In this document: positions 6,521-60,020 of the stretch, in pieces
Numbering within the stretch: the first letter of the stretch is position 1
Layout: every line of letters begins with the position of its first letter
Assembly (NCBI GenBank): GCA_951406725.2
Contig: OX597823.1
Location: forward strand, 79,484,001 to 79,548,000
Length of the DNA: 64,000 nt
DNA from: Octopus vulgaris
Taxonomy: Eukaryota
Direction: 5' to 3'
Position numbers and translations under genes: made by a program
Notes under the pieces: generated by a model
Databases searched by the model: none
Told to the model about the DNA's origin: nothing
The model's input: the letters and a program-made list of their open reading frames with translations, nothing else

Positions 6521-7440
6521 TAACTTAAAATAATAAGGGTGAAAAATTGAATATTGATTTGAATAAGTATCAATTTAAAACCAGTGGTCTAGTATATAGA
6601 AAAATCTGAAGATTCAGAAGAATTATATTGCATACATATAAGAAGGATGACCACTAAGTGGACATCCATTATGCTATATGTCGACCCCCTATGGTTTTAC
6701 CACTAAGAAAGGAATGTTCTCAAGAAAATTTAGCAAAAGCCAGAACATAAGCGAGCAAGACAAATGAAAAGATACAAAATATACAGATTAATCACAAACC
6801 CAGTTTCGTTGTTACCACTTACGTAGATGTCCACAACTCGTCAGTGTGATCGTCATAGCAAAATGTAATTTGAAGAACTATACACGAAACATCCACATGA
6901 GATTGAATATTTATATAGTTCTACCAATTACATTTGGGTTTTTTTTTTTCAAAAGTCTTCATTATGGCACACCAAAATACCGGAAATAATTCTGCAGAAA
7001 ATAATTCACTGCAGTGAATTTTGCCGGTTAGAGAACATAGTTATTTAGATTTAAATTTAAAATAATAAGAGTGAAAAATTGAATATTAATTTGATTAATA
7101 TCAATTTAAAACCAGTGGTCTAGCATATAGAAAAATCTGAAGATCCAGAAAAATTATATTAGGGAGAGTCTGAGAGACCCTGCGTATGGGCTACAAAGGA
7201 TGGTCGGAGTTGAAAACAGAGAGGTGGGAGAGGAAAGCAGAGAGAGAGAGGAGTAGACAGGAGGAACGGGGAAATGGTGATGGGGCTGTTAAAGATGAGG
7301 AATACGAACGCTATACAGTGAACCCTGATACTGTGGTGAGTGGACATACAAGGGAAATGAACCTTGTTTGAAAAGGTATTTGTGTTCGAATGGAAGAAAA
7401 ATGTATACTTAGTGGTCATCACTCTTATATATATGTAATA
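6521..7440 (-). mobile_element. Non-coding HHR-bearing PLE-like element, partial tandem (period ~532) with a short inverted end
   Basis: taataag(g/a)gtgaaaaattgaatatt...aattatatt at 6531 and 7063; 7409-7432 is an inverted copy of ~6635-6660; contains the HHR at 6791-6850; sits between microsatellites. Confidence 0.65.
6791..6850 (-). ncRNA. Type I hammerhead ribozyme
   Basis: Minus: atcaca CTGACGA gttgt..acaac GAAA c tgg g TT tgtgat. Stem I 6 bp, stem II 5 bp, minimal stem III, GUU cleavage triplet. Confidence 0.75.
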
Positions 7441-7745
7441 TATATATATATATATATAGCAATTAAGGACAACTACTTAATAAGGAAAACTTAACAAGAA
7501 ATTGTCAGGTAGATAGCGTGAAAACCTCATAAGAGAATAAATTTCGAAAATAATTATTTCTTATTGAACATATTAATTTATATATGGAGGGCATTATACA
7601 TACATGCCAGAGGGCATTATACATACATGCCAGAGGGCATTATACATACATGCCACACGCTAAGAGGGACAATTAGTCATTTCTACCAAAAATATTACTA
7701 ATCCCACCGAATGCAATTTTTCAAAGTAAGACATTTAAAAAATAT

Positions 7746-7793
7746 AGACCTGTATCACAGTGATTTCATACTTACGTATTCATCAGCAGGCCT
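7746..7793 (-). ncRNA. Type I hammerhead ribozyme (inverted copy)
   Basis: Exact reverse complement of 8265-8312. Confidence 0.85.
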
Positions 7794-8264
7794 GAATGTA
7801 TCATAAATAAACGACCCTGCCCCGCTTAAGTCGATCAGCTAACTGATCAACATCAACGAAGCACATGGGTGAGTTTACATATATTACATCCTGTAAATGG
7901 CATACTTTTACGAATTGCATTTCGGGAAAGGAAAATGTATAATGCCCTCTGGCATGTATGTATAATGCCCTCTATATATAAATTAATATGTTCAATAAGA
8001 AATAATTATTTTCGAAATTTATTCTCTTATGAGGTTTTCACGCTATCTACCTGACAATTTCTTGTTAAGTTTTCCTTATTAAGTAGTTGTCCTTAATTGC
8101 TAAATTTTTATTCCGAAAAAACTTTTCCTTTCCCGAAATGCAATTCGTAAAAGTATGCCATTTACAGGATGTAATATATGTAAACTCACCCATGTGCTTC
8201 GTTGATGTTGATCAGTTAGCTGATCGACTTAAGCGGGGCAGGGTCGTTTATTTATGATACATTC

Positions 8265-8312
8265 AGGCCTGCTGATGAATACGTAAGTATGAAATCACTG
8301 TGATACAGGTCT
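8265..8312 (+). ncRNA. Type I hammerhead ribozyme, intact core
   Basis: aggcctg CTGATGA atac-gtaa-gtat GAAA tca-ctg-tga TA caggtct. Stem I 7 bp, stem II 4 bp with GNRA loop, predicted cleavage after A8305. Confidence 0.88.
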
Positions 8313-8676
8313 ATATTTTTTAAATGTCTTACTTTGAAAAATTGCATTCGGTGGGATTAGTAATATTTTTGGTAGAAATGACTAATTGTCCCTCTTAGCG
8401 TGTGGCATGTATGTATAATGCCCTCTGGCATGTATGTATAATGCCCTCTATATATAAATTAATATGTTTAATAAGAAATAATTATTTTCGAAATTTATTC
8501 TCTTATGAGGTTTTCACGCTATCTACCTGACAATTTCTTGTTAAGTTTTCCTTATTAAGTAGTTGTCCTTAATTGCTATATATATATATATATATATATT
8601 AATAGCGTTCTGTCAATCGCTATACAAATCCATCATTTTTTGCTAAAATGTCTTATTGACGAGTTTCGTCTTTTTC

Positions 8677-8762
8677 ACTTTCCCGAAGAGAAGATTGCAT
8701 TGTTTATACCATTTATTCTTTTGAATAGTATCAGTGGAATTTTCGAAACATGTGTCGAAAGT
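8677..8762 (+). ncRNA. Type I hammerhead ribozyme, U4C core mutation, long loop II; in a ~200-bp element between (TA)n tracts
   Basis: actttc CCGAAGA gaagatt...aattttc GAAA catgtg TC gaaagt; near-identical to the intact copy at 22698-22783. Confidence 0.7.
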
Positions 8763-8804
8763 AAAAATATTTGATTTACACCTGCGTTAAACTCCATTTA
8801 TTTA

Positions 8805-8970
<166 letters not shown>

Positions 8971-13340: not shown

Positions 13341-13456
13341 ACGGCGACGATATATGTGTGTGTGTGTGTGTGTGCGTTCGCGCGCGTATAGATAATAAAG
13401 GTGACTTATTTGCAATTACCCGGTTGCCTAGAGTTAACCCTAGGCTGCAGGGTGAG

Positions 13457-13504
13457 GGCCACTGACGAGCATTAACCAAATGCGAAATCACTGTTGATCT
13501 GGTT
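13457..13504 (+). ncRNA. Type I hammerhead ribozyme, intact core
   Basis: ggcca CTGACGA gcatt-aacca-aatgc GAAA tca-ctgt-tga TC tggtt; cleavage predicted after C13499. Confidence 0.82.
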
Positions 13505-13799
13505 ATAGCCCGGATGCTGTAGGGAGCTTGCCTCCCTCGTCAGTCATAAGATAAGTGCACTCTCGTGGCTAGAAGTTGTTTTTACTCTTATTTATAGCAA
13601 AGCTAGTGCTAACTAGTACTCTTAGACACTTTAGTGACGTCTATAGTTCTGCCATTTGCTTGTAAATTGCGAATAAGCCACATTTATTATTTATAATTTT
13701 TTTCTTTTACCATTTATGAAATCAACTTGGAATTTCTACGATGACTCTTATAAACAAACTGAGACGGCGAGCTAGCTTCACCCTAGGCAGTCGGGTAAA

Positions 13800-13847
13800 A
13801 GCCACTGACGAGCATTAATTAAATGCGATATCATTTGTGATCTGGCT
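13800..13847 (+). ncRNA. Type I hammerhead ribozyme, GAAA mutated to GATA
   Basis: agcca CTGACGA gcatt-aatta-aatgc GATA tca-tttg-tga TC tggct. Confidence 0.7.
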
Positions 13848-13948
13848 ATTCTCCACGATGCTGTAAGGAGCTTGCATCCCTTGTCAGTCAGTGGATAAGT
13901 GTTTTCTCATGGCTAAGAGTTGTTTTTATTCTTATTTCTAGCAATGTT

Positions 13949-13980
<32 letters not shown>

Positions 13981-13982
<2 letters not shown>

Positions 13983-14345
13983 CTAAATAAGCAACAAGAA
14001 TATCTTCGGTAATTTGGTACGATCGTTTCATGCTACATCATTTTATTAAACATTGTAAGTATTACATCAGTTTCAAAATGTTGAGCAATCTTCAGCAATT
14101 AACATGGAAATAAGTACATGTATTGATGGAAAACGTCAATAAATGGCTGAAGATTGCTCAACATTTTAAAACTGATGTAATACTTACAATGTTTAATAAA
14201 ATGATGTGGCATGAAACGATCGTACCAAATTACCGAAGATATTCTTGTTGCTTACTTTGATTATAATCACCCCATGGATTTATATGGATAATACCGTACA
14301 AAATTCTGGTGCATCAGACTTAAGTACCATATTCATTTGAATCTC
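13981..14345. mobile_element. Head-to-head inverted HHR element (arms 13988-14096 / 14146-14254)
   Basis: ~109-bp near-perfect inverted repeat next to (TA)n; each arm carries an HHR-like motif. Confidence 0.75.
14144..14227 (+). ncRNA. Hammerhead-like motif with long loop II and palindromic stem III (inverted copy at 14015-14098)
   Basis: tgg CTGAAGA ttgc...gcat GAAA cgatcg TA cca. Stem I only 3 bp; U.U mismatch at the base of stem II. Confidence 0.6.
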
Positions 14346-14384
14346 TCTCTATATATATATATTTCCATACGTATATGTATATAT

Positions 14385-14548
14385 AGGAGAATTCACGAAA
14401 AAACAAAAGACGGGGACAGGTGGTGTAGAAAACAAACAGATGTATTAGTATAACGCCCGGGAATTGAAAAGTTTCGAGCCTACGCTCTTCCACAGAAAGG
14501 CACACAGAAAGAAACAAGGAGAGAAAAATGTGTGTAGTGGCTACCGGT
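14385..14548 (-). mobile_element. Short repeat family with a hammerhead-like CUGUNGA core (copy 1 of 3; 3' side of the core deleted)
   Basis: Homologous to 46292-46475 and 47519-47708; minus cttt CTGTGGA a gag-cgtagg-ctc GAAAc. Confidence 0.6.
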
Positions 14549-16087
14549 ACATACATACCTATGCAGAGAAAGAGGCAGAAGAAGTATTTGTGCCAAGCTA
14601 CAATATATCCGTATTATATAGTTTTTTTGAAATATTTATAAACAGTTCTGCCAGTGGCTTTCTAATTAGATTGGATAATCTTAAACACGAAAATGAAAGA
14701 AGATGCCGCAAAATAGCTTATTACAATAAATGGAAGTTACCGATTTACTTTGTAGAGTTATATAACCGTGACTTTTATATACGCAGAAATATGATATTGC
14801 TTTATTTATGCCGTTTATAATAGTGTTGACGTCGTTAAGTCAAGTTGAATGTGTTGAATCGCAATTCAAACACTGTCTCGGCTCACACGAACTGTTATCT
14901 TTCTAGACACATTTTTTAAAGTAAACATCAATATCAAAGAATACCGGTTTACTTTGACTAGGCGAATAACAGAGTTGATTGACTTCATAGAAGTGCAGTA
15001 ACATTAATTATTTTATCTAGCCCGAAGTAAGAAACAGCTGCTGTGTACACCGATGGAATTGCTATTCAAAACGGTAATATAAAATATCGTCCACCACGAA
15101 TGTTTTTGCGAGACTATCACTCTTGAGAACATAACATAATTAATTCAAATTTATGTCTTTTTCTAAAACTGGTTCTGAGTTGTTAGCATTTTGTCCAATT
15201 TCAAGATTTTTTTTTTCATTATCATATTATATTATATTATACTATACCTTTTATTTTTCTAATTGCCTTCATGTATCTCGACCTTATCGTCTCTAATTGG
15301 AACTTAATTTCAAGGAAAATTTGAAGGAGTTTTTTTGTGTGTGTGTGTTTTTAGATTTTTTTTTCTTGCAAAACAAAACTGCCGCATTCATTGCTTTGCT
15401 AGTTAGCAATGAGTGTTTCTGTCACTTGAAAATAATTAACATTGCATTCGTAATTTTGTTATTGGCTAGAATTCTTATGCTTTTGTCATAGTTAAACCGA
15501 CTAGGCAAAGAGTTAGCTGAATGCTAAACCAATTATAAATGTAAACATTCCACTTAGAACAAAATAGTTAACCTTTATTGAACTCAATTATTAGTAGTTT
15601 CGCTCCTGGAGAAAATTATAATTATTTGTGCAAGTTAATCATGTAACCGCAACAATACGAAGCTCCACATAGCTCGCCGTTGCATTTCAACTCATAATGT
15701 TTTCTCGATTGTCTTTGGCAGTTTCAGTGTAGGTCATATATAACATTATGTGCGGAATCATTTTATGTAATTGTTTAACGCAGTTTTCTAACGTACAAAT
15801 TCATTGAATCATTTGATCTCGCTGATGAATATGATTGTATAATTTCTATATTTGTTTCAGTACTAGCTCTTCTTTGATTTTACAATAAAGTAATTTGTGA
15901 TGTCACAGAGACTTATAAGTTCAAATTTATAAAACTTATTTTCATTATTTTTATTTATTAGTTGTTATCGAATCATTCAAGGCAACCGAGTAACAGAGTC
16001 ATAACAGCATTGACTGGAATGCATTGCGTTATATTTTTCCCGAGGTTGACTATCTCTTTGAGTTCTGTCTCGGTGCTAAGCTTGTGC

Positions 16088-22494: not shown

Positions 22495-22818
22495 TGAGTG
22501 TATTTTTACCTTGTTAACAATTAACACGGAAAAAAAAAATAAATAAATAGTTACCAGGGCAGCAAAAATCTCACAAGTAAAGGTGCTGTATCTCCTTGTT
22601 TATAAAGGTAGAAACTTCGTGTTTACGTTGAATATTTTGAATATACAAATCCATCATTTTTTGCTAAAATGTCTTATTGACGAGTTTCGTTTTTTTCACT
22701 TTCCTGAGGAGAAGATTGCATTGTTTATACCATTTATTCTTTTGAATAGTATAAGTGGAATTTTCGAAACATGTGTCGAAAGTAAAAATATTTGATTACA
22801 CGTTACTCCATTTTTTTA

Positions 22819-22822
<4 letters not shown>
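22495..22822. mobile_element. HHR element between (TA)n tracts; left part in opposite orientation to the HHR-bearing right part
   Basis: 22641-22822 is near-identical to 8621-8808; 22519-22615 matches the minus-oriented 11190-11270 sequence. Confidence 0.7.
22698..22783 (+). ncRNA. Type I hammerhead ribozyme, intact core, long loop II
   Basis: actttc CTGAGGA gaagatt...aattttc GAAA catgtg TC gaaagt. Stem I 6 bp, stem II 7 bp, GUC triplet ending at 22777. Confidence 0.8.
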
Positions 22823-22860
<38 letters not shown>

Positions 22861-22863
<3 letters not shown>

Positions 22864-23153
22864 GTAAAATAATATATGGCAATTATTCAATAGCCAAGAT
22901 AAAACTCTGAGTTTCGGATGCCGAGGTGGAAATCCACAACACCATCTCTTCGGTTATCTGGCCAAAGGCGTTTTTCAGATGGCCAGATAACCGAAGAGAT
23001 GGTGTTGTGGATTTCCACCTCGGCATCCGAAACTCAGAGTTTTATCTTGGCTATTGAATAATTGTCACATATTATTTTACAGATAAATTTCCTCTATTTA
23101 CATAATATTGAGGTCTCTTTCTTTCTTTTTTGTTATCTTACCGTTTTTACCAA
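22861..23153. mobile_element. Head-to-head inverted HHR element (arms 22861-22964 / 22980-23083)
   Basis: ~104-bp near-perfect inverted repeat with a 15-bp spacer; (TA)n on both sides. Confidence 0.8.
22985..23047 (+). ncRNA. Hammerhead-like motif with CCGAAGA core (inverted copy at 22897-22959)
   Basis: agataa CCGAAGA gatg..catc c GAAA ctc-a-gag TT ttatct; inner hairpin gtgga-tt-tccac within loop II. Confidence 0.65.
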
Positions 23154-37149: not shown

Positions 37150-37455
37150 TTACGATGACGAGGGTTCCAGTTAATCCGATCAACGGAACAGCTTGCTTGT
37201 GAGACTAACGTGCAAGTGGCTGAGCACTCCACAGACACGCGTACCCCTTCACATACTTTTCAGGGACATTTAGCGTGACATAGAGTGTGACAAGATTGGC
37301 CCTTTGAAATACATGTAGTACTCAATTTTTACAGTTGAATGGACTGGAGCAACGTAAAATAAAGTGTCTTGCTCAAAGATACAACGCACTGCCGAGAATC
37401 GAACTCGCGACCCTTCGATTGCGAGCCGAATACCCTAACCACTAAGCCACGCTCC
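37150..37455 (-). mobile_element. Chimeric SINE: family D-like head and CORE joined to family C tail type 1
   Basis: 37330-37455 resembles the reverse complement of 4592-4715; 37150-37315 matches 16665-16830. Confidence 0.7.
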
Positions 37456-43079: not shown

Positions 43080-46000
43080 CTGGCATGGGGAAAGACCTGG
43101 CCACCTACCCCAGTATCCTGGCCAATATACTCTATGGTGTAAGAATTCTAATATGATGGTACCAAACAGTGGGATCTCCGGGCTGCGAGATACCACATTG
43201 GCTACTGGGGAAGAGCACAAGGATAATCATAATAGCGGCAGTATTGATGACGCGGATGGGACAAATCCTTCTGGACACCTGCCTGCTGATGTAGCCACCA
43301 GTGAACTGAGATCCCTGCGCTGCACAAAAGTCACAAAAATTGGAATGTGGAACGTAAGGGGGATGAACATTGGGAAGTTGGACACCATCAAGAAGGAAAT
43401 TAATCGGTTAAACATCGATATCCTGGGAGTCAGCGAAGTTCATTGGACTGGCAATGGTTTCTTCAACTCTGGTGATCATACAATGTAATTTTCGGGCAAT
43501 AGTAAGACCAGACAACATGGAGTGGGATTTGTTCTATACAAGAAAATGTCCAAATACGTTGAAAGTTTCCAGACCATGAGTGATCGAGTGATTACCATTC
43601 ACATCAAAGCCAAACCCAACAACATCACATTGCTACAAATCTACGCGCCAACTGCCGACGCTGAAGAAGATGAGATTGAAACATTCTATGCAGAAATTCA
43701 GGGCGCAATCGAGGAAACACCACGAGCAGATGCTGTTGTGTATATTCTGGGAGATTTCAATGCCAAAATTGGAGAAATGGCAGAAGCAGACATCGTTGGC
43801 AAATTTGGATTAGGAGAACGGAATGAAGCAGGAGATCGGCTGGTCCAATTTTGTCAAGAACAACACATGCGGTTAACCAATACTTGGTTTCGGCAACCAA
43901 GAAGAAGATTATACACCTGGATATCGCCAAGTGGACAGTACCGCAATCAAATCGACAACATCCTATGTCAGCAACGGTGGAAGAGTTCAGTCCAAGTTGT
44001 GAAGACGTTCCCTGGGGCAGACTGTGGATCTGACCATGAACTTCTGGTTGCCAAGATCAAGATGCGACTCTGCAGCGTCAAGCGACCACCCGCTTACCAG
44101 AAATTTGATACCAGCAAGATCGGTCCATCATATGCCGCTGAGATCAGAAACCGCTTCGAACTGCTCACCATCGAATAGAATCAAGAAGCAGAAGAAATAT
44201 GGGAGAAGGTGAAGGAAATTGTCGTTGAAACAGCAGAGAAACATGTACTGTACAAGAAACCCATACGATCAGCAAAGTGGATTTCGGAGGAGACTATTGC
44301 AATAGCAGAAGAAAGAAGGAGAGCAAAGATGACCAGAAGCAGGGATGAAGTACGGCGCCTGAATGCAATGTTCCAACAGGCCGCCAGGAAGGACAAAGAG
44401 AAATACTGGAATGAAGAATGTGCAAGGGCAGAGGAGGCATACAGGAAAGGGAACATGAGAGAACTTTACCAACATGTAAAGAAGACCCGTACAGCATTCA
44501 CGGCCAGACAAGCAACCATCCGAGGGAGAAATAGTGAAGAACTGCATGACCAAGAAGGGATCAGGAAAATATGGAAAGAGTACACTGAACAGTTGTATGC
44601 AGGAAACGACCTCGATGAATAGGCAGAAGAGAAGCCACTGGAACTGGAACCAGACATCCTGGACGATGAGGTGGTATGGGCAATGAAACAGCTGACCAAC
44701 CGAAAAGCCCCAGGTACTGATGGTATTCCACCAGAATTACTCAAGCCAATACCAACAAAAACACTAACATCGCTTTGCCAACGAATATGGAGAACCTGTA
44801 AGTGGCCAAGGGAATGGAAGAGGTCAGTTTTCATCACAATACCAAAGAAAAGAGATACCAAGGACTGCGCAAACTACCGTACCATCACCCTGGTCCCCCC
44901 CCCCCCTGTAAGCAAAATTCTCCTTAAACACAACTATTGAGAGAGAATTGCCAGAGGTGCAAGCTGGTTTCAGAAAGGGAAGAGGCACCCGCGATCACAT
45001 CGCCAACCTACGGTGGATTATGGAAAAGGCAAGAGAATACCAAAAGAAGCTGTACATGTGTTTCATCGATTACTCCAAAGCCTTTGACAGCATTGATCAT
45101 GACAAGTTATGGAAATGTCTGGAGGAAATGGGAACACCTTTACACCTTGTCCAGCTTATTAGATCACTCTATCAAAACCAACAGGCTACAGTACGGACAC
45201 AATATGGCGACACTGATTGGTTTGAGATTGGAAAAGGCACTCGGCAAGGTTGCATCCTGTCACCAGTAGCCTTCAACACGTACGCTGAAAAGGTCATGAG
45301 GAATGCCGGCCTGGAGGATAGCAGCATTGGAGTGAGGATTGGAGGAAGAAATATTAATAACCTTCGCTATGCAGATGATACAACCCTGCAGGCGGAGAGT
45401 GGTAAGGATCTGGAGGATCTTGTCCTGCTGGTCAAGAAAGAGAGGGAGAAATTTGGGCTGTATCTCAATGTTAAGAAAACGAAGATCATGTCAACATCAG
45501 CCACAACAAACATCAGCATCAAGATCGATAATGAAGCGATTGAAGTGGTTGATGATTTCATCTTCCTTGGCTCCAAAATAAATCGAGATGGCGACTGCAC
45601 TCCAGAAATAAGACGGTGGATAGTACTAGGCAGAGAGGCAATGGTCACCATTAGCAGGGTCTGGAAGAGTAGATACATCAGACTCGCTACCAAATGCAGA
45701 TTGGTGAATGCAATTGTCTTCCCAATAGCGACATATGGACGCGAGACCTGGACACTAAAGAAAGCTGACCAGAAGAGTATTAATGCATTCGAGCTTTGGT
45801 GTTGGAGAAGACTTTTACGGATTGCATGGACAGCGAGGTTCACCAATGGAGAAGTCCTTAAGCAGATGAGGCCGAAAATGTCGCTAGAAGCTTGAATCAC
45901 CAAGCATAGATTGGCATATTTCGGTCATATTATGCGGAGAAAATCCCGGGAGAAGGACATCATGCTCGGAATGGTCAGTGGCAAGAGAGGAAGAAACCGA

Positions 46001-46141
46001 CCAAGAACCCGCTGGCTTGACGCCATCAAGAGTGATACCGGAATGGACATAACCAGTCTGAAAGAAGCGATCCAGGATAGAACTGACTGGAGGACACTGA
46101 TCCAACGAGTGACCGAGAGTCGACTACGACTGAGCGGTTAG
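43054..46141 (+). pseudogene. RTE ORF (APE endonuclease + reverse transcriptase), 4 premature stops and one net frameshift near 44890-44940
   Basis: GMWNVRGM, LGVSEVHW, GDFNAKIG, SDHELL, KAPGTDGIP, FIDYSKAFD, GTRQGCILSP, LRYADD, YFGHIMR, RPRTRWLD; stops at 43486, 44176, 44620, 45893. Confidence 0.93.
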
Positions 46142-46164
46142 AAGAAGAAGAAGAAGAAGAAGAA

Positions 46165-46959
<795 letters not shown>

Positions 46960-46960
<1 letters not shown>

Positions 46961-47497
46961 ATAGTGTACATTTAGACACAAACTGCCTTTAACAAGCAGT
47001 TTTACACGCTAGAAGAAGCAGTCGAAATGATCAAAACCACATTTAAGAACAATTTCGAAGGGAATGGAAAATAAGAAAAACCTTTACCTTGTTATTTTTT
47101 TACGATCATACCTAGATTTCGAATATTATTTAGCAAATAAAATAATTTGCTAGCCGAAATTTTCATCAGTAACCGCGCCATAACATTAACATATCATTTA
47201 GAGACATATAATACGTGTCTCATCATGATATATTATAATTTTTCAAATTCACTGCGCACGCGCTGTTTCAGTCGACACCAAATGAAAGAAATGCCGAATT
47301 AATCTTCTGAAAATTCTAAAACATATCCGTAACATATATAGGGCAACGAGTTTTTTAGAAACTTCACTACCAGTGGCCTAGCATGTATAAAAAACTCAAT
47401 AAACAACAAATTGTTGTCTACTGCCTCTTTTATACATGCTAGGCCACTGGTAGTGAAGTATCTAAAAAAACTCGATACCCTATATATTTTACGCATG
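46960..47497 (-). mobile_element. HHR element with terminal inverted arm (47351-47391 / 47427-47470); circular permutation of the 59700 copy
   Basis: Shares aaaatagtgtac..gctagaagaagcag..aaaaccac and ccagtggcctagcatgtataaa blocks with 59715-59880 but in swapped order. Confidence 0.7.
47104..47174 (-). ncRNA. Type I hammerhead ribozyme, weak stems
   Basis: Minus: ggtta CTGATGA aaat..tagcaaat-tatttt-atttgcta..attc GAAA tctagg TA tgatc. Confidence 0.55.
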
Positions 47498-47518
47498 TAT
47501 ATATATATATATATATAT

Positions 47519-47708
47519 ACAGTTGAAATTTATAAAAAAAAAGCAAAACACGAAGACAGGTGTATAATCAACAAACAAATGTATTAGTTTAACGATCGGG
47601 AAGGTGAGAAAATATTTTACGTTTCGAGCCTACGCTTTTCAACGGAAAGAAACAAGATGAAATAAACACAGAGAGAATAAAAAATCTCTTGGACCTAGCG
47701 GTGAATCA
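47519..47708 (-). mobile_element. Short repeat family with a hammerhead-like core (copy 3)
   Basis: Minus: ttt CCGTTGA a aag-cgtagg-ctc GAAA cg TA aaa. Confidence 0.6.
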
Positions 47709-47717
47709 CACACACAC

Positions 47718-47760
<43 letters not shown>

Positions 47761-47839
47761 TTTACACTTTGATAGGCTTCGGTCAGTATTGGCCCAGATC
47801 ATGTCCAACTGAATAGCACCACCTCGCAAGGTCATTCAC

Positions 47840-49250
47840 TACAAGCAAACAGATTCTAAACAAAAGTTACTATTCTCCTCATGCCATCCCAAACAGAAGA
47901 AGAATAATATCCCCTTCAATCTAGCAAGAAGAATCTGCACAATTGTCTCAAGCTCTGAAACTTGCAATAAAAGACCCCAGGAACTAAAGCAAGAAGCATG
48001 TACTACTTTTAAGACAATATCCATTAATGCTGATAGACAATAGAATATAACGTGCCAAAGTAAAAACACTCCAGTTACACCCAATAATCTACCTTTTATT
48101 ACAACACACAACCCAAGAAACACGGTGGTTTACAATATTATCCACCAGAACATCCGACTACTAATACAAGACTCAAGAATAAAACAAGCATTCGAAATAC
48201 ACAAACTCATCAAAAGTAAAAGAGAATCAAAATCCCTCAAAAATTCCTCACAAGCGTCAAATTACATTTCCTACACCAATACTCGAAAAATGTCGCCGCC
48301 CCAATTGCGGGACCTGTATCAACCTTATTGTAGACACAACATAAAAATTCAAATCAAGAGAGACTTTTACCGTAAAAACTCACTTTACATGTTCTTCAAA
48401 AATCTAATATACGCTATCAAATGTCAATGATGTAATCAAGATTACGTAGGTCAAACAAAGCTTCCTCTAAGAAATAGACTAACCATTCACCGACAACAAA
48501 TACGAAACTCTAGTACTAGACGGGTCCCACAGAATGGTCACATGAACATGTATGCAAAACATAAATCTCACAAATTCCAGGTCTTCCCACTCTACCTGTG
48601 TTCAGCGAATACTACAGATGAAGCAAGGATAAATAAAGAAAATACTTTCATACAAAAGTACAAATCAAGACTTGACAAACTTTAACAGAATATATTCACA
48701 AATAACTATCCACACATAAAATTCATTCTGCCACTTCTCATGAGGAAGCTACAAACTAACAACCTGAATTTTAACCATTGGACTACAAACTCCTCTCCCA
48801 TCAGACAGATTAGATTTTGACTGTCTTGATTATAACTAAACATGTTCACTCAACCGTATCCGCCTTCTTTTTAGGCGCAAAATATACTGCCACGTGACAC
48901 TAACGCACGGACGGAGCGGGAAACGTACAAAAGTTTCTAAGAGCGCGGAACCTGCAAAAGTTTCTAAGACCAGTGATGTGATTATCCTCTACCAATCAAA
49001 TTCTATTCAAAACATATACTAATTTGCGCCATGAACTCCCTATAAAACAGGGGAAACTTCAAACACTAGTCAGAAGCAAGACAGCTGCGAAATAAGCCAC
49101 TTCTTTCTATTTGAACTTTTTGAAAATCAATGTCAACTGTGAAACCGGTTAAAGCTTTAAATATATTAATAAAAAATATTTTAACTATTCTCAGTGCCTT
49201 TTCAACTTGTATTTTTCCTATGCTTCTACCAATGTGGAATAAAAATAACT
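47840..49250 (+). pseudogene. 5'-truncated Penelope-like element (RT thumb + GIY-YIG remnant + pLTR)
   Basis: SSCHPKQKKNNIPFNLARRICT and NLIYAIKCQ*CNQDYVGQTKLPLRNRLTIHRQQIR parallel the 56400-57070 protein; CCAAT and TATAAAA then a degenerate HHR (cttt TTGAAAA tca..tgt GAAA ccgg TT aaag, 49116-49154). Confidence 0.8.
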
Positions 49251-49255
49251 TTGTT

Positions 49256-49299
<44 letters not shown>

Positions 49300-52756: not shown

Positions 52757-53057
<301 letters not shown>

Positions 53058-53603: not shown

Positions 53604-54797
53604 AAAGTCGATCATGGAATGATATGTCACAAGCTGCGTGATCTTGGCATAGTTGGAAAATTGGGAGAATGGCTTCATGACTTTTTGAAGGATAGAAGTC
53701 AGGTGGTAGTAGCCAATTAACACTTCCATTAACACGCAAATAGTGAGCGGTGTTCCGCAAGGCACTGTTCTGGGACCACTACTGTTCATAATGGCCCTCT
53801 CAGACATGCCCTCAGCCACGCAGAGAGCCACGATCACAAGTTATGCAGATGATACAAAAGTTTCACAGGCAATATAGAACCCTGAAGACACTAAGCACCT
53901 GCAATGTGAGCTGGACAAAATATACAAGTGGGCTGAAAAGAATAGCATGCAGTTCAATGCTGAAAAGTTTTAAGCTTTATACTATCAGCATGCAAAACTA
54001 AATGCAATACCCAATAAATACACTGGACCTGGAGGGATTGCAATCCCAGAGTGAGACCTGGGTATTTAAATGAGTGATGATGCTAAATTGGCAATGAAAT
54101 GTAGGCGGCTGACCGGATGGATTCTTAAAACCTTTAGAACAAGAGACCAGGAAACCATGATGGTCCTCTGGAGGACACTTGTCCTAAGCCACTTTGACTA
54201 TTGCTCTCAACTATGGTCACCATCCAGTGTCAAGTTAATCGCAGAACTTGAGGCGATCCAGCGAAGCTATACGAAGAAGATAGCCTCTGTGCAGCATATA
54301 AGCTATTGGGGAAGACTCAAGAGATTGAGACTCTATTCCTTAGAGCGTAGGCGAGAAAGATATGCCATAATATATATCTGGAAGATCCTAGAAGGACTTG
54401 TCCCAAACTTTGGCATCGAGAGTTACACAAATGCCAGAACTGGGCGCCACTGCATAGTGCCAAGGACTCCAAATTTGCCATCAAGATGTAGGACAAGATA
54501 CTGTGATAGCCTAGGCTTCCGAGGCCCACAGCTCTTCAATATCCTCCCGAAGAACCTAAGAGACCTGCATGGGGTGGATGCAGATGTCTTTAAAATGAAA
54601 CTAGATCACTTCTTGTCAGGTCTCCCAGATGAACCAACTTCACGGCAGGAGGTGCAGATGAGGGCAGCTGCATCGAACTCTCTCATGCACCAGATGGCAT
54701 TTGCTAAAAGGCATTCGTGAAGTAAAATCATGTAGCAACACCAAATGGCGGTGCCCCAGCATGACCACAGCTTGTGAGCTGAAATTTAAAAAAAAAA
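53604..54797 (+). pseudogene. 5'-truncated CR1-group LINE nested in the Penelope ORF
   Basis: KVDHG, SGVPQGTVLGPLLF, SYADDTK, LYSLERRRERYAIIYIWKILEGLVPN; 3' hairpin then A-rich tail. Confidence 0.9.
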
Positions 54798-54989
54798 TAC
54801 CAAAAACAAGACAGAAAACATAACGAAACCAAGTAAAATACCACAACCAAAACGCAAAATTCATCAAGCAAACATCAACAGGAATATAAATCATAAACAG
54901 AAAAAAATTCATTTTTTTTACGTCAGGACAACAAACGCCGGAGAAAGAAAAAATCCAAGAGGAAACATACCCAAAACAACTGAACGTAT

Positions 54990-57213
54990 AGTTCCTAAAA
55001 TAATTAATTTATCAAAAAGAGATCTTGACAATGATGAAATCCAACTTCTGTCAAAAGGACTGAAATCCACACCTCACCAACAGGCAATCACCAAGAATTA
55101 AAGGAGGATATCCAAAAATTCTGTCGAAAATTACGACTTGTAGAATTCTTTGCTAACAAAAGTAATGAGATTGATGAATCCCTAGTAAGGAATAAATCAA
55201 ATTTCACCCCACCAAAAGGAAGAAATAACTACCTTGACCAATACATTGATATCCTGTCTAAATTTCCCCTTAGACGCAATACCAATGTTAGGCCAAACAT
55301 TAACAAATCAGAGATGTCTGCTTGTAGACGTATACAAAACGATCAAACAATAATAATTAAACAAGCAGATAAAGGTGGTACAATTGTTATTATGGATACC
55401 GAATACTATAAGGATTTGGTTGAGGACCAACTGAAGGACACAACCTTCTATTGTGAAATACCCTCAAATATAGACCACCACATCATGAAAAAGATCAACA
55501 ACCTGATTTCAAAACACTACAACTCGCTTACCGATAATGAAAGAGACTACATCACCAATTTCGAACCAAAACCCAGCAACTTCTACGGCTTACCGAAAAT
55601 ACATAAATCAAAAGATATTCAACATGCAGTAAAAGAACAAGGAAGTGAGTACATAAAATTACTACATCCAAAAGACCTAAATCTTAGACCTATTATAGCT
55701 GGTCCAGCACGCCCTGCCTACCGTCTAAGCAATTTTATTGACATTGTTTTGAAACCACTATGTACTTACATACCCAGTTTCATCAGGGATGACATCGACT
55801 TCCTGTCCCATCTTCCCAAAACAACAGAAACAAATTCAGTTTTACTAAGTTTTGATGTGGTAAGTCTCTACCCCAATATTCCACACGATTTAGGAATAAA
55901 GGTGATTAAATACTGGTTAGAAAAACATAGAGAAGTGATTCCCAGCAGATTCACAGTGCCATTTATATTAGACACAGTCAAACTTATTCTAGAAAACAAC
56001 TCATTCTTCTTCAATGGAAAGAATTACATCCAAATTAGAGGCACGGCGATGGGAACGAGGTTTGCTCCCGTTTACGCCAACTCTGTAATGGGATACTTAG
56101 AACAACAACCCTACCAAGAGGTGGAGATAAACTATGGCACTGGATTTAGAAAGTATATTGAAAAGGCATGGAAGAGATACCTTGACGACTGCTTCATAAA
56201 CTGAACAGAATCTCTAAATACTCTGGAAGAGTTCAATATCCTCCTGAACAACCTACACCCATCTCTCCAATTTACAAAGGAGATGAGTAGTACCAAATTA
56301 CCATTCCTAGATATAATGGTAAATTAAAAAGGACACCACCATCACCACAGATATATACTATAAACACACAGACACACATCAATACCTGAATTTTAAGTCG
56401 TGCCATCCACCACATACAAAACGCAACATCCCATACTGCCTAGCCAGAAGAATTTGTACCATTGTAGAAGATGCAAATATCAGGAACAAACGCCTAACAG
56501 AACTAAGAGAATTTTTGCTCAAACAAAAATATCCATGTCTACTTATAGAAAATGGCATACAGCGGGCTATAAAAATACCCATACAACAACTTAGGACAAC
56601 CCAAGGAAGGGGAAAACAAGAACAAGTCATACCATTCATAGTGACACACAACCCATGTCCCCAGAATATCTTCAACATTGCCAAAGCAAACCTACCAATC
56701 ATTGCTCAAAGTAAGGAATTAAAAGATATAATCACGGATCGAGCTATGGTTCTTAGTAAAAGACAGCCTAAAAACTTGAAAAAATTACTAACAAAGGCAA
56801 AATTTGACCTTAGCAACAAAGACCAAACATTCACTGTATCTAAATGCAATGATAGCCGATGTGGCACACGCCAATTCATACATACCGGCCAATATATAGA
56901 CACAAAAACCGGGAAAATATTCACAAACGCGAATATGAACTGCAAAGGCAGAAATTTAATTTACTGCATCAAATGCCCAAATTGTGAAGAAATATATGTA
57001 GGTCAGACGGGAAATGCACTATCAGAACGCTCACGTGTACACCGACAACAGGTTAGAGACCCAGAGGTCCGTCAGATACCTTTGAGTAACCACCTAGCAA
57101 CATGTGGTCGGAAAATATTTGTAATATTTCCATTCTACAATTACACAGCCCAAGTGAAATCGAGAGGAAAATCAGAGAAAAGAATTTTATTGATAAATTC
57201 GAACCCAAGCTAA
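54990..57213 (+). pseudogene. Penelope RT + GIY-YIG endonuclease, disrupted
   Basis: INLSKRDL..E..LLSKGLK, IKQADKGG, FYGLPKIHK, RPIIA, SFDVVSLYPNIP, GTAMG, RYLDD (56178-56189), NLIYCIKCPNCEEIYVGQTG; several stops and frameshifts. Confidence 0.92.
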
Positions 57214-57544
57214 ATAAGCAATAATAATAATACTTAGAGGTACTACTTCTACTGCTACGACCATGACCACTAACAACAACAACAACAACAACAATACTAA
57301 AGGTGATCAAGATGAAGATAGCAGGAAGATTATCTTATTTAGGGTTAAAAGTTCTATTGCCACCACCATCACCACTAGCAACAATAATTAAGGTGCTGAC
57401 AATGATGATGATGACAATTGAAATATAATAATCACTGACAAAGGCTATTTACAACATTTCTAAAAATAGCCCAACAATTGCTGTCTCGCCAGGGTTAAGA
57501 TACAGGATTCTTTACATGTTCAACAAAGCGTGACGCCTAAACCA

Positions 57545-57645
57545 ACCAATCAGCTTAAGTAATTGAGTGATGCTACACACTGATTGGTCAGAATACAGTT
57601 TGCAAAACCTAGCAATCTGGAGCCCACACAGGTGTATTTAAAGCA
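57545..57645 (+). promoter_or_regulatory. Putative pLTR Pol II promoter (CCAAT, inverted CCAAT, TATA-like)
   Basis: ccaatcag, ctgattgg and tatttaaa upstream of the HHR; similar ccaatc/tataaaa layout at ~48990-49050. Confidence 0.45.
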
Positions 57646-57705
57646 CAGATTTAACCATCTCGCTACAGTCAAAAATTGTGAAGCATGACTGTCACCACTA
57701 CTACA

Positions 57706-57750
57706 TGAACCTGAAGACTGCATAATTTAATGCATGAAAGTACTAGTTCA
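57706..57750 (+). ncRNA. Minimal type I hammerhead ribozyme of the Penelope pLTR
   Basis: tgaac CTGAAGA ctgca-taatttaa-tgcat GAAA gtac TA gttca; palindromic stem III (agtact); cleavage predicted after A57745. Confidence 0.82.
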
Positions 57751-57876
57751 ATCAGAATGAATATTTAACATTCTATTATTTTATTTTATTTTATTATATT
57801 ATATTATTTTATATTATATAATTATAAGATTGTAAATAAAACGTGAAAATCAGACAAGGTTGGAATTCCTTTTATT

Positions 57877-57912
<36 letters not shown>

Positions 57913-59605: not shown

Positions 59606-59689
59606 ATATATATACATGTGTGTATATATATGTGTGTGTGTGCACATATCGATACATATATATATGTATATAAAAGATACATATATCGG

Positions 59690-60018
59690 GTAGCGAATAT
59701 TCGTTAGAAATATCACCACCAGTGGCCTAGCATGTATAAATAGTCAATAGACAACATATTCTTATTTTAAAATAGTGTACCTTTAAACACAAGAGAAAAC
59801 TACCCTTTAACAGGTAATTTTTACATGCTAGAAGAAGCAGCCAAAACCACGATTTAATAGCAATTTTCGAAGGAAATAACAAGGTAAAAGTTTTTATTTT
59901 TCATTTTTAGAGCCTTATTACTCTTAACACTCTTAACGGTTCAATTTCCAGTAATTTACGTATTTATTCTTCCTAAAATTTCCGTTGCATCTTGCAACTT
60001 CTTCAATAGTAGTTGATC

Positions 60019-60020
<2 letters not shown>
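59690..60020 (-). mobile_element. Relative of the 46960 HHR element with a degenerate core
   Basis: Shared sequence blocks; minus cta TTGAAGA a gttgc-aagat-gcaac g GAAA ttt tag at 59973-60009. Confidence 0.55.

What the first reader, a model, noticed from the sequence alone, without database searches (positions are those of the whole stretch)
46960..47497. Two relatives of one HHR element are circular permutations of each other
At 59715-59880 block X (ccagtggcctagcatgtataaa..caata(g/a)acaaca) directly precedes block Y (aaaatagtgtac..gctagaagaagcag..aaaaccac). At 46960-47410 the order is Y, HHR, X, followed by an inverted X. Permuted order is expected from a circular or tandem RNA template.
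Basis: partly seen in the sequence, partly recalled or inferred. Interest (0 to 1): 0.7.

Follow-up and report, generated by a model that had tools for sequence, protein, structure and literature searches.

The report
Penelope-type ribozyme repeat, two inverted copies
Both spots are worn copies of one common, non-coding jumping repeat that carries a self-cutting RNA motif; its unit closes on itself head to tail, but the shuffled order here is mostly an inversion made during insertion, as known for Penelope-like elements, and is not proof of a circular RNA.

Summary
The block orders are as described and far beyond chance. Contigs of four public sequencing runs show a multicopy family in which both adjacencies recur. 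X joins Y in 10 of 12 listed joint rows, each with a different linker. The middle part joins X in 5 of 15 listed joints and one continuous contig. So the unit (about 462 bp, no ORF, one type I hammerhead) is tandem or terminally redundant, and 'two adjacent insertions' is unlikely. But the loci are not simple permutations. Locus 2 holds only about 230 bp and no family hammerhead. Each locus has an inversion that starts where the non-inverted part stops. Undoing both gives the same order and the same end in (TA)n (score 222 versus 122). A (TA)n target, a head-to-head inverted arm with a palindromic joint and an optional tail are published Penelope-like element features; three other hammerhead elements in the window are also partial tandems. 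A circular RNA template is possible (locus 1's long arm is 98% of one unit), but no RNA was tested. Verdict: new member of a known kind.

The parts
46479..46957 (.). TA-rich microsatellite tract; left target of locus 1 (its last letters, catattc-(at)n at 46941-46957, resemble the family linker)
46958..47062 (-). Block Y; on the hammerhead strand it lies downstream of the ribozyme; two hairpins, and a segment that pairs with X
47063..47097 (-). Block W, AT-rich imperfect hairpin just 3' of the hammerhead; present inverted at locus 2
47102..47176 (-). Type I hammerhead ribozyme motif, degenerate copy (core intact, loop III CUAG, cut site after 47109, basal stem II broken)
   Evidence: family variants
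47177..47324 (-). Middle block M, non-coding, upstream of the hammerhead; absent from locus 2
47325..47410 (-). Block X, upstream copy (5' end of the long arm; terminal redundancy)
47404..47416 (.). Palindromic joint between the two head-to-head arms (CAACAA-A-TTGTTG)
47411..47496 (+). Inverted block X: short arm with the family's usual 3' end, running into (TA)n
47497..47520 (.). (TA)n, right target of locus 1
59679..59768 (-). Locus 2: block X plus linker; 3' end of the copy, next to a TA-rich tract
59769..59873 (-). Locus 2: block Y; Y-linker-X folds as one domain (z -3.64, 0 of 200 shuffles)
59874..59905 (+). Locus 2: block W inverted, beginning where Y stops in the template; 5' end of the copy

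Best explanation
A non-autonomous, protein-free derivative of a Penelope-like element (PLE) pseudo-LTR, retrozyme-like, with a unit of about 462 bp. On the hammerhead strand it reads X-M-HHR-W-Y-linker-X. It is transcribed as a linear, terminally redundant or multimeric RNA that is not cut at the hammerhead before copying. A PLE reverse transcriptase/GIY-YIG protein acting in trans cuts both strands of an AT-rich target and primes twice. One cDNA starts at the usual site at the end of X. The other starts further up the same template, at the point where the first stops, and the two cDNA ends are joined head to head. At locus 1 the second priming was at the X/Y linker, so the tail X ended up inverted on the right and Y-W-HHR-M-X on the left: the apparent permutation. 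At locus 2 it was at the Y/W border and copied only about 32 nt. Shown: block order, family-wide joints, contiguous breakpoints, hammerhead anatomy, (TA)n flanks. Inferred: the RNA, the enzyme, two-site priming and the order of events.
For: Un-inverting both loci makes them colinear over 242 columns, 178 identical, score 222 against 122 raw. At both loci the inverted arm begins within about 10 nt (locus 1) or 0-2 nt (locus 2) of where the other arm stops. X-to-Y joints: 10 of 12 listed rows, in 3 of 4 runs, all linkers different; M-to-X: 5 of 15 listed joints and contig X2/16 (47208-47379, 29 other letters); 4 of 15 listed joints are strand switches at other places, so inversions recur in the family. 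Y-linker-X folds as one domain (un-inverted locus 1 z -2.82, 1 of 200 shuffles). Family variants repair or covary in the hammerhead stems. Other hammerhead elements in the window are direct partial tandems: 6522-7160, 7935-8587 with an inverted arm, 13434-13944. Decayed PLE ORFs lie nearby, one ending in a hammerhead and (TA)n. Published PLE features: partial tandems, inverted 5' copy, optional tail, (TA)n bias (PMC8557442); palindromes at the inverted junction (PMC3846280); both strands cut and extended, two internal start sites bounding the tail, uncut RNA as substrate (PMC11167929).
Against: No contig spans a whole unit and no array was seen. Depth at the M-X junction (47278-47341) is 588-910 in X2 against 11,705-34,626 in M and about 60,000-66,000 in X, so most copies either lack this junction or are under 80% alike there. 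3 of the 5 M-to-X joints have a shorter side under 30 letters, which the tool flags as unreliable. No autonomous PLE with this pLTR was found in the window. The tail (about 95 nt) is three times the published 30-40 nt. No target-site duplication is visible. The right arm of locus 1 runs about 9 nt past the end seen at locus 2 and matches the left arm there, which fits fold-back self-priming as well as a second priming. The long arm stops at 98% of one unit, which a linear multimer does not predict by itself.
Confidence: 0.58

Rival explanations
1. Circular RNA template (retrozyme model). Multimeric transcripts self-cleave at the hammerhead, monomers are ligated into 462-nt circles, and a PLE RT copies the circle from either of two start sites. 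Locus 1's long arm is one full round that stopped on meeting its own start.
For: Closed unit map. The long arm is 453 of about 462 bp, with the cut site inside it, so its template was uncut or re-ligated. A second family in the window also has an arm at 95% of a unit; 2 of 4 long arms fall within 5% below one unit (post hoc chance 0.007-0.017). Hammerhead stems are conserved and appear to covary in the family. Animal retrozymes give circles and are proposed to be copied by PLE RTs (PMC7229834).
Against: A fixed RNA 5' end near the linker predicts the same near-unit arms. The other two arms are 1.20 and 1.35 units and would need strand displacement. Most copies appear to end at one site, the end of X, not at random phases. 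Folding as a circle is no better than linear (z -1.73 versus -2.25). In vitro a PLE used uncut RNA (PMC11167929), and 8 of 9 Xenopus retrozyme dimers did not cleave (preprint 2026.07.22.740005). No RNA evidence was obtained.
Confidence: 0.22
2. Single priming at the linker followed by fold-back: one cDNA copied Y-W-HHR-M-X up to the RNA's 5' end, folded back at the palindrome, recopied X and joined (TA)n. The two loci then really differ in their start site (with or without the tail X) and are permuted in that limited sense.
For: Perfect 13-nt palindrome at the joint. The two X arms share subfamily letters that locus 2 lacks (74 of 87 versus 67 and 65 of 91). The right arm matches the left arm about 9 nt beyond locus 2's end. 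Self-priming was proposed for PLE palindromic junctions (PMC3846280).
Against: It does not explain locus 2, where the inverted W is new upstream sequence and not a copy of the adjacent arm. The right arm ends at about the family's usual 3' end, which fold-back would reach only by chance or by TA microhomology.
Confidence: 0.12
3. Locus 1 is a composite: a 5'-truncated ordinary pLTR fragment (Y-W-HHR-M) next to an independent short X/inverted-X insertion, or a copy that lost its left X into the microsatellite later. The family has one linear order and may be the pLTR of an unseen autonomous PLE.
For: Deep dip in contig depth at 47278-47341. The same tract collected several independent insertions (46293-46478, 47521-47705, 47761-48690).
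Against: Diverged contigs run through the M-X junction (X2 record 16; other letters at 47299, 47315, 47333 and 47344 carried by 5, 6, 8 and 15 contigs of X2). Y at locus 1 starts where the inverted X stops in the template.
Confidence: 0.08

Closest known systems
Pseudo-LTRs and non-autonomous derivatives of endonuclease-containing Penelope-like elements (PMC8557442, PMC3846280, PMC2377424, PMC11167929, PMC4209133)
   Same: Type I hammerhead with tiny, palindrome-capped stem III; partial tandem; inverted 5' arm with a palindromic junction; tail on one arm only; (TA)n/AT-rich target; 3' end downstream of the hammerhead.
   Different: No ORF. The tail-like X plus linker is about 95 nt, not 30-40. 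The inverted arms continue the template from an internal breakpoint (twin-priming pattern) instead of starting at the usual 3' end. No autonomous partner identified.
Non-LTR retrozymes of animals (Cervera and de la Pena 2020, PMC7229834; Li, Clavereau and Pollet 2026 preprint 10.64898/2026.07.22.740005)
   Same: Short AT-rich non-coding unit with one type I hammerhead, closing head to tail, multicopy, co-occurring with PLEs.
   Different: Unit about 462 bp, above the 170-400 nt of the 2020 paper but inside the 51-972 bp of the preprint. Only monomer-sized or shorter dispersed copies were seen; no array with two hammerheads, no circular RNA and no cleavage shown.
LINE-1 twin-priming 5' inversions (described in PMC2837659)
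   Same: Two inverted fragments of one template, the second starting internally next to where the first stops, with a small internal deletion and short microhomology.
   Different: No poly(A) tail, no target-site duplication, a microsatellite target, and a presumed PLE enzyme. It is a likeness of mechanism, not membership.

Membership tests
PLE pLTR-derived non-autonomous element | Type I hammerhead with short stem III and palindromic loop | tested here: met
   Core, stem I and loop CUAG at 47176-47102; degenerate in this copy; family variants restore pairs
PLE pLTR-derived non-autonomous element | Direct partial tandem or terminal repeat | tested here: met
   X at both ends after un-inversion; both adjacencies in other copies
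PLE pLTR-derived non-autonomous element | Inverted arm at the 5' end, head to head, palindrome at the junction | tested here: met
   47325-47496, joint 47404-47416
PLE pLTR-derived non-autonomous element | Insertion in (TA)n or AT-rich DNA | tested here: met
   Both ends of locus 1 and the 3' end of locus 2; the 5' end of locus 2 abuts unrelated unique DNA
PLE pLTR-derived non-autonomous element | Optional 30-40 bp tail | tested here: inconclusive
   X plus linker behaves like an optional tail but is about 95 nt
PLE pLTR-derived non-autonomous element | Sequence homology to the pLTR of an autonomous PLE | tested here: inconclusive
   No match to the two PLE remnants in the window; no genome held
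Autonomous PLE | RT plus GIY-YIG ORF inside the element | tested here: not met
   No stop-free frame of 100 aa or more within 46960-47497; the unit closes at about 462 bp
Non-LTR retrozyme | At least two consecutive units, each with a hammerhead | tested here: inconclusive
   Neither locus has two; contigs are too short, none spans a unit
Non-LTR retrozyme | Short, low-GC, non-coding unit with a type I hammerhead | tested here: met
   Median unit 461.5 bp from 10 joints; GC 0.289 for 46001-48000 including microsatellites; no ORF
Non-LTR retrozyme | Expression as self-cleaved linear and circular monomer RNA | not testable with these tools
   No RNA holder listed; only contigs were laid
Twin-priming inversion (L1 type) | Inverted part begins next to where the direct part stops, small deletion or overlap | tested here: met
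   2 of 2 loci; a third, weaker case at 7401-7442 with 240 nt of unrelated DNA between
Twin-priming inversion (L1 type) | Target-site duplication and poly(A) tail | tested here: not met
   Neither seen by eye at the flanks; a duplication could not be recognised inside (TA)n

The most novel reading that the evidence does not exclude
This family is copied from a covalently closed, hammerhead-ligated 462-nt RNA circle by a PLE enzyme that primes both target strands at two sites about 95 nt apart. Locus 1 is then a fossil of exactly one round on the circle. The distribution of arm lengths across the genome would give direct genomic evidence for the circRNA-templated integration that the retrozyme model proposes, and for twin priming by a PLE enzyme, which I did not find described in my searches.
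Probability: 0.2. Interest if true: 0.55.

Novelty: new member of a known kind. Interest (0 to 1): 0.27.

Why it matters
As it stands: one more hammerhead-bearing, PLE-mobilised repeat family, and a warning that a 5' inversion on a terminally redundant template mimics circular permutation. The modest added value is mechanistic. How PLEs make their tandem and inverted arms is still open (PMC8557442, PMC11167929), and both copies show inversions with contiguous breakpoints. A family with many copies and a short closed unit would be a convenient natural data set: arm lengths and breakpoints could separate circle, linear multimer and fold-back models.

Tried and rejected
No whole genome is held, so insertion endpoints could not be mapped genome-wide. 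Rfam at gathering threshold gave only a tRNA-like hit at 37391-37450. An exact 22-nt X pattern found 0 matches in metagenome contigs. No RNA holder was listed; this is no evidence on expression. 4 of the 10 listed runs were laid; all are contigs, many table rows were not shown, and depth is not a copy number. Earlier scan notes by place, by sequence and by seven words returned nothing. Homology of 59906-60020 to M or the hammerhead was rejected; it holds a hammerhead-like remnant (UUGAAGA, hairpin, GAAA near 60006-59983) that fails the descriptor. Overall homology to the 6522-7160 element was rejected (score 60, shuffle maximum 77); only a 31-42 nt motif in X is shared (0 of 2000 shuffles, a test chosen after seeing the match). 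Folding energy of the hammerhead alone is not significant (z -0.71 and -0.87). The two-sequence alignment fold of Y was uninformative because the alignment shifted a hairpin. A post-insertion flip of the W hairpin was considered: less likely because the inverted piece includes bases outside the hairpin arms. The host was not identified; my impression of a cephalopod-like genome is recalled and untested. No supplementary files were read; those of PMC8557442 and PMC7229834 may list this family.

Full report
Observation. Locus 1 reads Y (46958-47062), W (47063-47097), a minus-strand hammerhead (47176-47102), a middle block M, X (47325-47410) and an inverted X (47411-47496), between TA-rich tracts. 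Locus 2 reads X, linker, Y (59679-59873). X and Y match at 81% and 74%, and 0 of 1000 shuffles reach either score. Two things were missed. Locus 2 has no M and no family hammerhead: 59906-60020 scores like shuffles. And locus 2 carries W inverted at 59874-59905.

The ribozyme. On the minus strand: CUGAUGA (47169-47163), GAAA (47120-47117), a palindromic loop III CUAG, the triplet GUA and a 7-pair stem I. This fits the type I hammerheads described for PLEs and tandem repeats, whose short, palindrome-capped helix III works as a dimer (PMC4209133, part 1 of 4 read). The copy is decayed: my strict descriptor found 6 other hammerheads in the window and 0 in each of 30 shuffles, but not this one. 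Contigs of other copies carry letters that turn its wobble pairs into Watson-Crick pairs: at 47105 in 94-100% of depth, 47116 in 66-90% and 47171 in 34-50%. The stem II mismatch at 47125 is repaired in 43-85%. Positions 47159 and 47124, which pair, change at similar rates (62-78% and 51-74%), as expected for U-A to C-G, though the changes are not phased. These six positions were picked by me from the 40 rows shown; 115 rows were not shown.

Family evidence. No genome is held. Ten runs were listed and 4 were laid; 122, 1611, 1116 and 619 contigs fitted at 80% or better. In table 5c, 10 of 12 rows shown (11 not shown) go from the end of X (47390-47393) back to the start of Y (46958-46961), with ten different linkers of 15-29 nt; one differs by a single letter from locus 2's linker and may be that locus. 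This gives a unit of 449-463 bp, median 461.5. In table 5, 5 of 15 rows shown (19 not shown) join M to X, 3 of them with a short side under 30 letters, and 4 of 15 are strand switches. One contig (X2, record 16) runs through 47208-47379 with 29 other letters, so it is a different copy. Against this, depth falls 13- to 100-fold at 47278-47341, and no contig spans a unit. The unit map therefore closes on itself, but arrays were not seen. Y-linker-X folds as one domain on the hammerhead strand (z -3.64, 0 of 200 shuffles; opposite strand z -2.42), which supports Y-then-X as the natural order.

What produced the apparent permutation. Read the right arm of locus 1 inward from (TA)n and continue with the left arm from 46958; flip W at locus 2. 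The two loci then align over 242 columns from a common end, score 222 against 122 raw. At locus 1 about 10 nt of linker are missing at the breakpoint, and Y starts on ATATA shared with the target. At locus 2 the breakpoint is contiguous to within 2 nt. This is the pattern of twin priming known from LINE-1 (PMC2837659, passages), without poly(A) or a visible target duplication. So locus 1 is best read as X-M-HHR-W-Y-X with a 5' inversion and locus 2 as a short 3' fragment with its own inversion.

Context. The window holds other hammerhead elements with the same architecture: 6522-7160 (108-bp direct terminal repeats, period 532), 7459-8577 (partial tandem of period 476 plus an inverted arm, both ends in (TA)n) and 13434-13944 (period 343). 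Decayed ORFs at 55038-57213 give weak RT and GIY-YIG hits, both below Pfam's cut-offs, and end in a hammerhead at 57711 and (TA)n. A related remnant lies at 48044-48430. Neither shares DNA with X or Y.

Comparison with what is known. Partial tandems, an adjacent inverted 5' copy, an optional 30-40 bp tail and (TA)n preference are described for PLEs, as are non-autonomous elements that form pLTRs (PMC8557442, passages). Palindromic inverted junctions and permuted inverted halves are described in rotifer Penelope (PMC3846280, passages), and copies with the tail at both ends in Drosophila (PMC2377424, passages). A purified PLE protein cuts and extends both strands, starts at two internal RNA sites that bound the tail, and uses uncut RNA (PMC11167929, parts 1-2 of 4). 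Non-LTR retrozymes are hammerhead tandem units expressed as circles and proposed to be copied by PLE RTs (PMC7229834, parts 2-4 of 6 and passages), and to derive from pLTRs (preprint 10.64898/2026.07.22.740005, parts 1-3 of 5). A search for Penelope with twin priming returned 2 papers, seen as listings only and not on this subject by title; some searches were read as listings apart from the papers named. This is weak support for 'not described', since most subscription papers are missing.

Circle or line. The long arm of locus 1 is 453 of about 462 bp and contains the cut site, so its template was not a cleaved linear monomer. One other arm in the window is 0.95 unit; two are 1.20 and 1.35. 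One round on a circle explains the first two, but so does a fixed RNA 5' end, and the chance figure (0.007-0.017) is post hoc on four arms, two of them from one insertion. No RNA data were available. I put a linear redundant or multimeric template with two-site priming at 0.58, a circle at 0.22, fold-back at 0.12 and a composite locus at 0.08.

Verdict. Real feature, observation confirmed, interpretation partly supported. It works like a PLE-mobilised retrozyme-type unit; membership in non-LTR retrozymes is unproven (no array, no RNA). New member of a known kind, interest 0.27.

Noticed in passing
window 6522-7160 (minus) and 7401-7442: Hammerhead element (core at 6844) with 108-bp direct terminal repeats that share a short motif with block X; a 42-bp inverted piece starts right after the repeat, with 240 nt of unrelated DNA between.
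   Followed up: partly
window 7459-8577: Young (95-98% between arms) textbook PLE-type insertion without ORF: inverted arm, partial tandem of period 476, intact hammerheads at 7786 (-) and 8272 (+), both ends in (TA)n.
   Followed up: partly
window 13434-13944 and 13977-14265: Direct repeat of period 343 with a hammerhead at 13462, followed by a head-to-head palindromic insertion.
   Followed up: partly
window 46293-46478, 47521-47705, 14372-14550: Three copies of a roughly 185-bp minus-strand element with a degenerate minimal hammerhead and similar ends, two of them flanking locus 1 in the same microsatellite region.
   Followed up: no
window 52817-52924: Near-perfect fold-back whose apex is a hammerhead core (CUGAUGA at 52863); z -14.7.
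   Followed up: no
window 54790-57878 and 47761-49260: Decayed PLE copies (RT then GIY-YIG); the first has a Cys motif before the endonuclease as described for Neptune/Nematis, and a 3' hammerhead at 57711. Clade not tested.
   Followed up: partly
window 43300-46140: Broken LINE with AP endonuclease and RT matches, RTE-like by my recall, ending in a (GAA)n run.
   Followed up: no
window 8621-8865 / 22642-22877 and 22856-23088: Two 93%-identical short repeats, one with a hammerhead-like descriptor hit at 22704, and an adjacent palindromic insertion next to (TA)n.
   Followed up: no
loose ends at 47129 and 47168-47169: Low-agreement consensus ends suggest a sister subfamily with loop III CAUG in place of CUAG (still palindromic) and a different stem I.
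   Followed up: no
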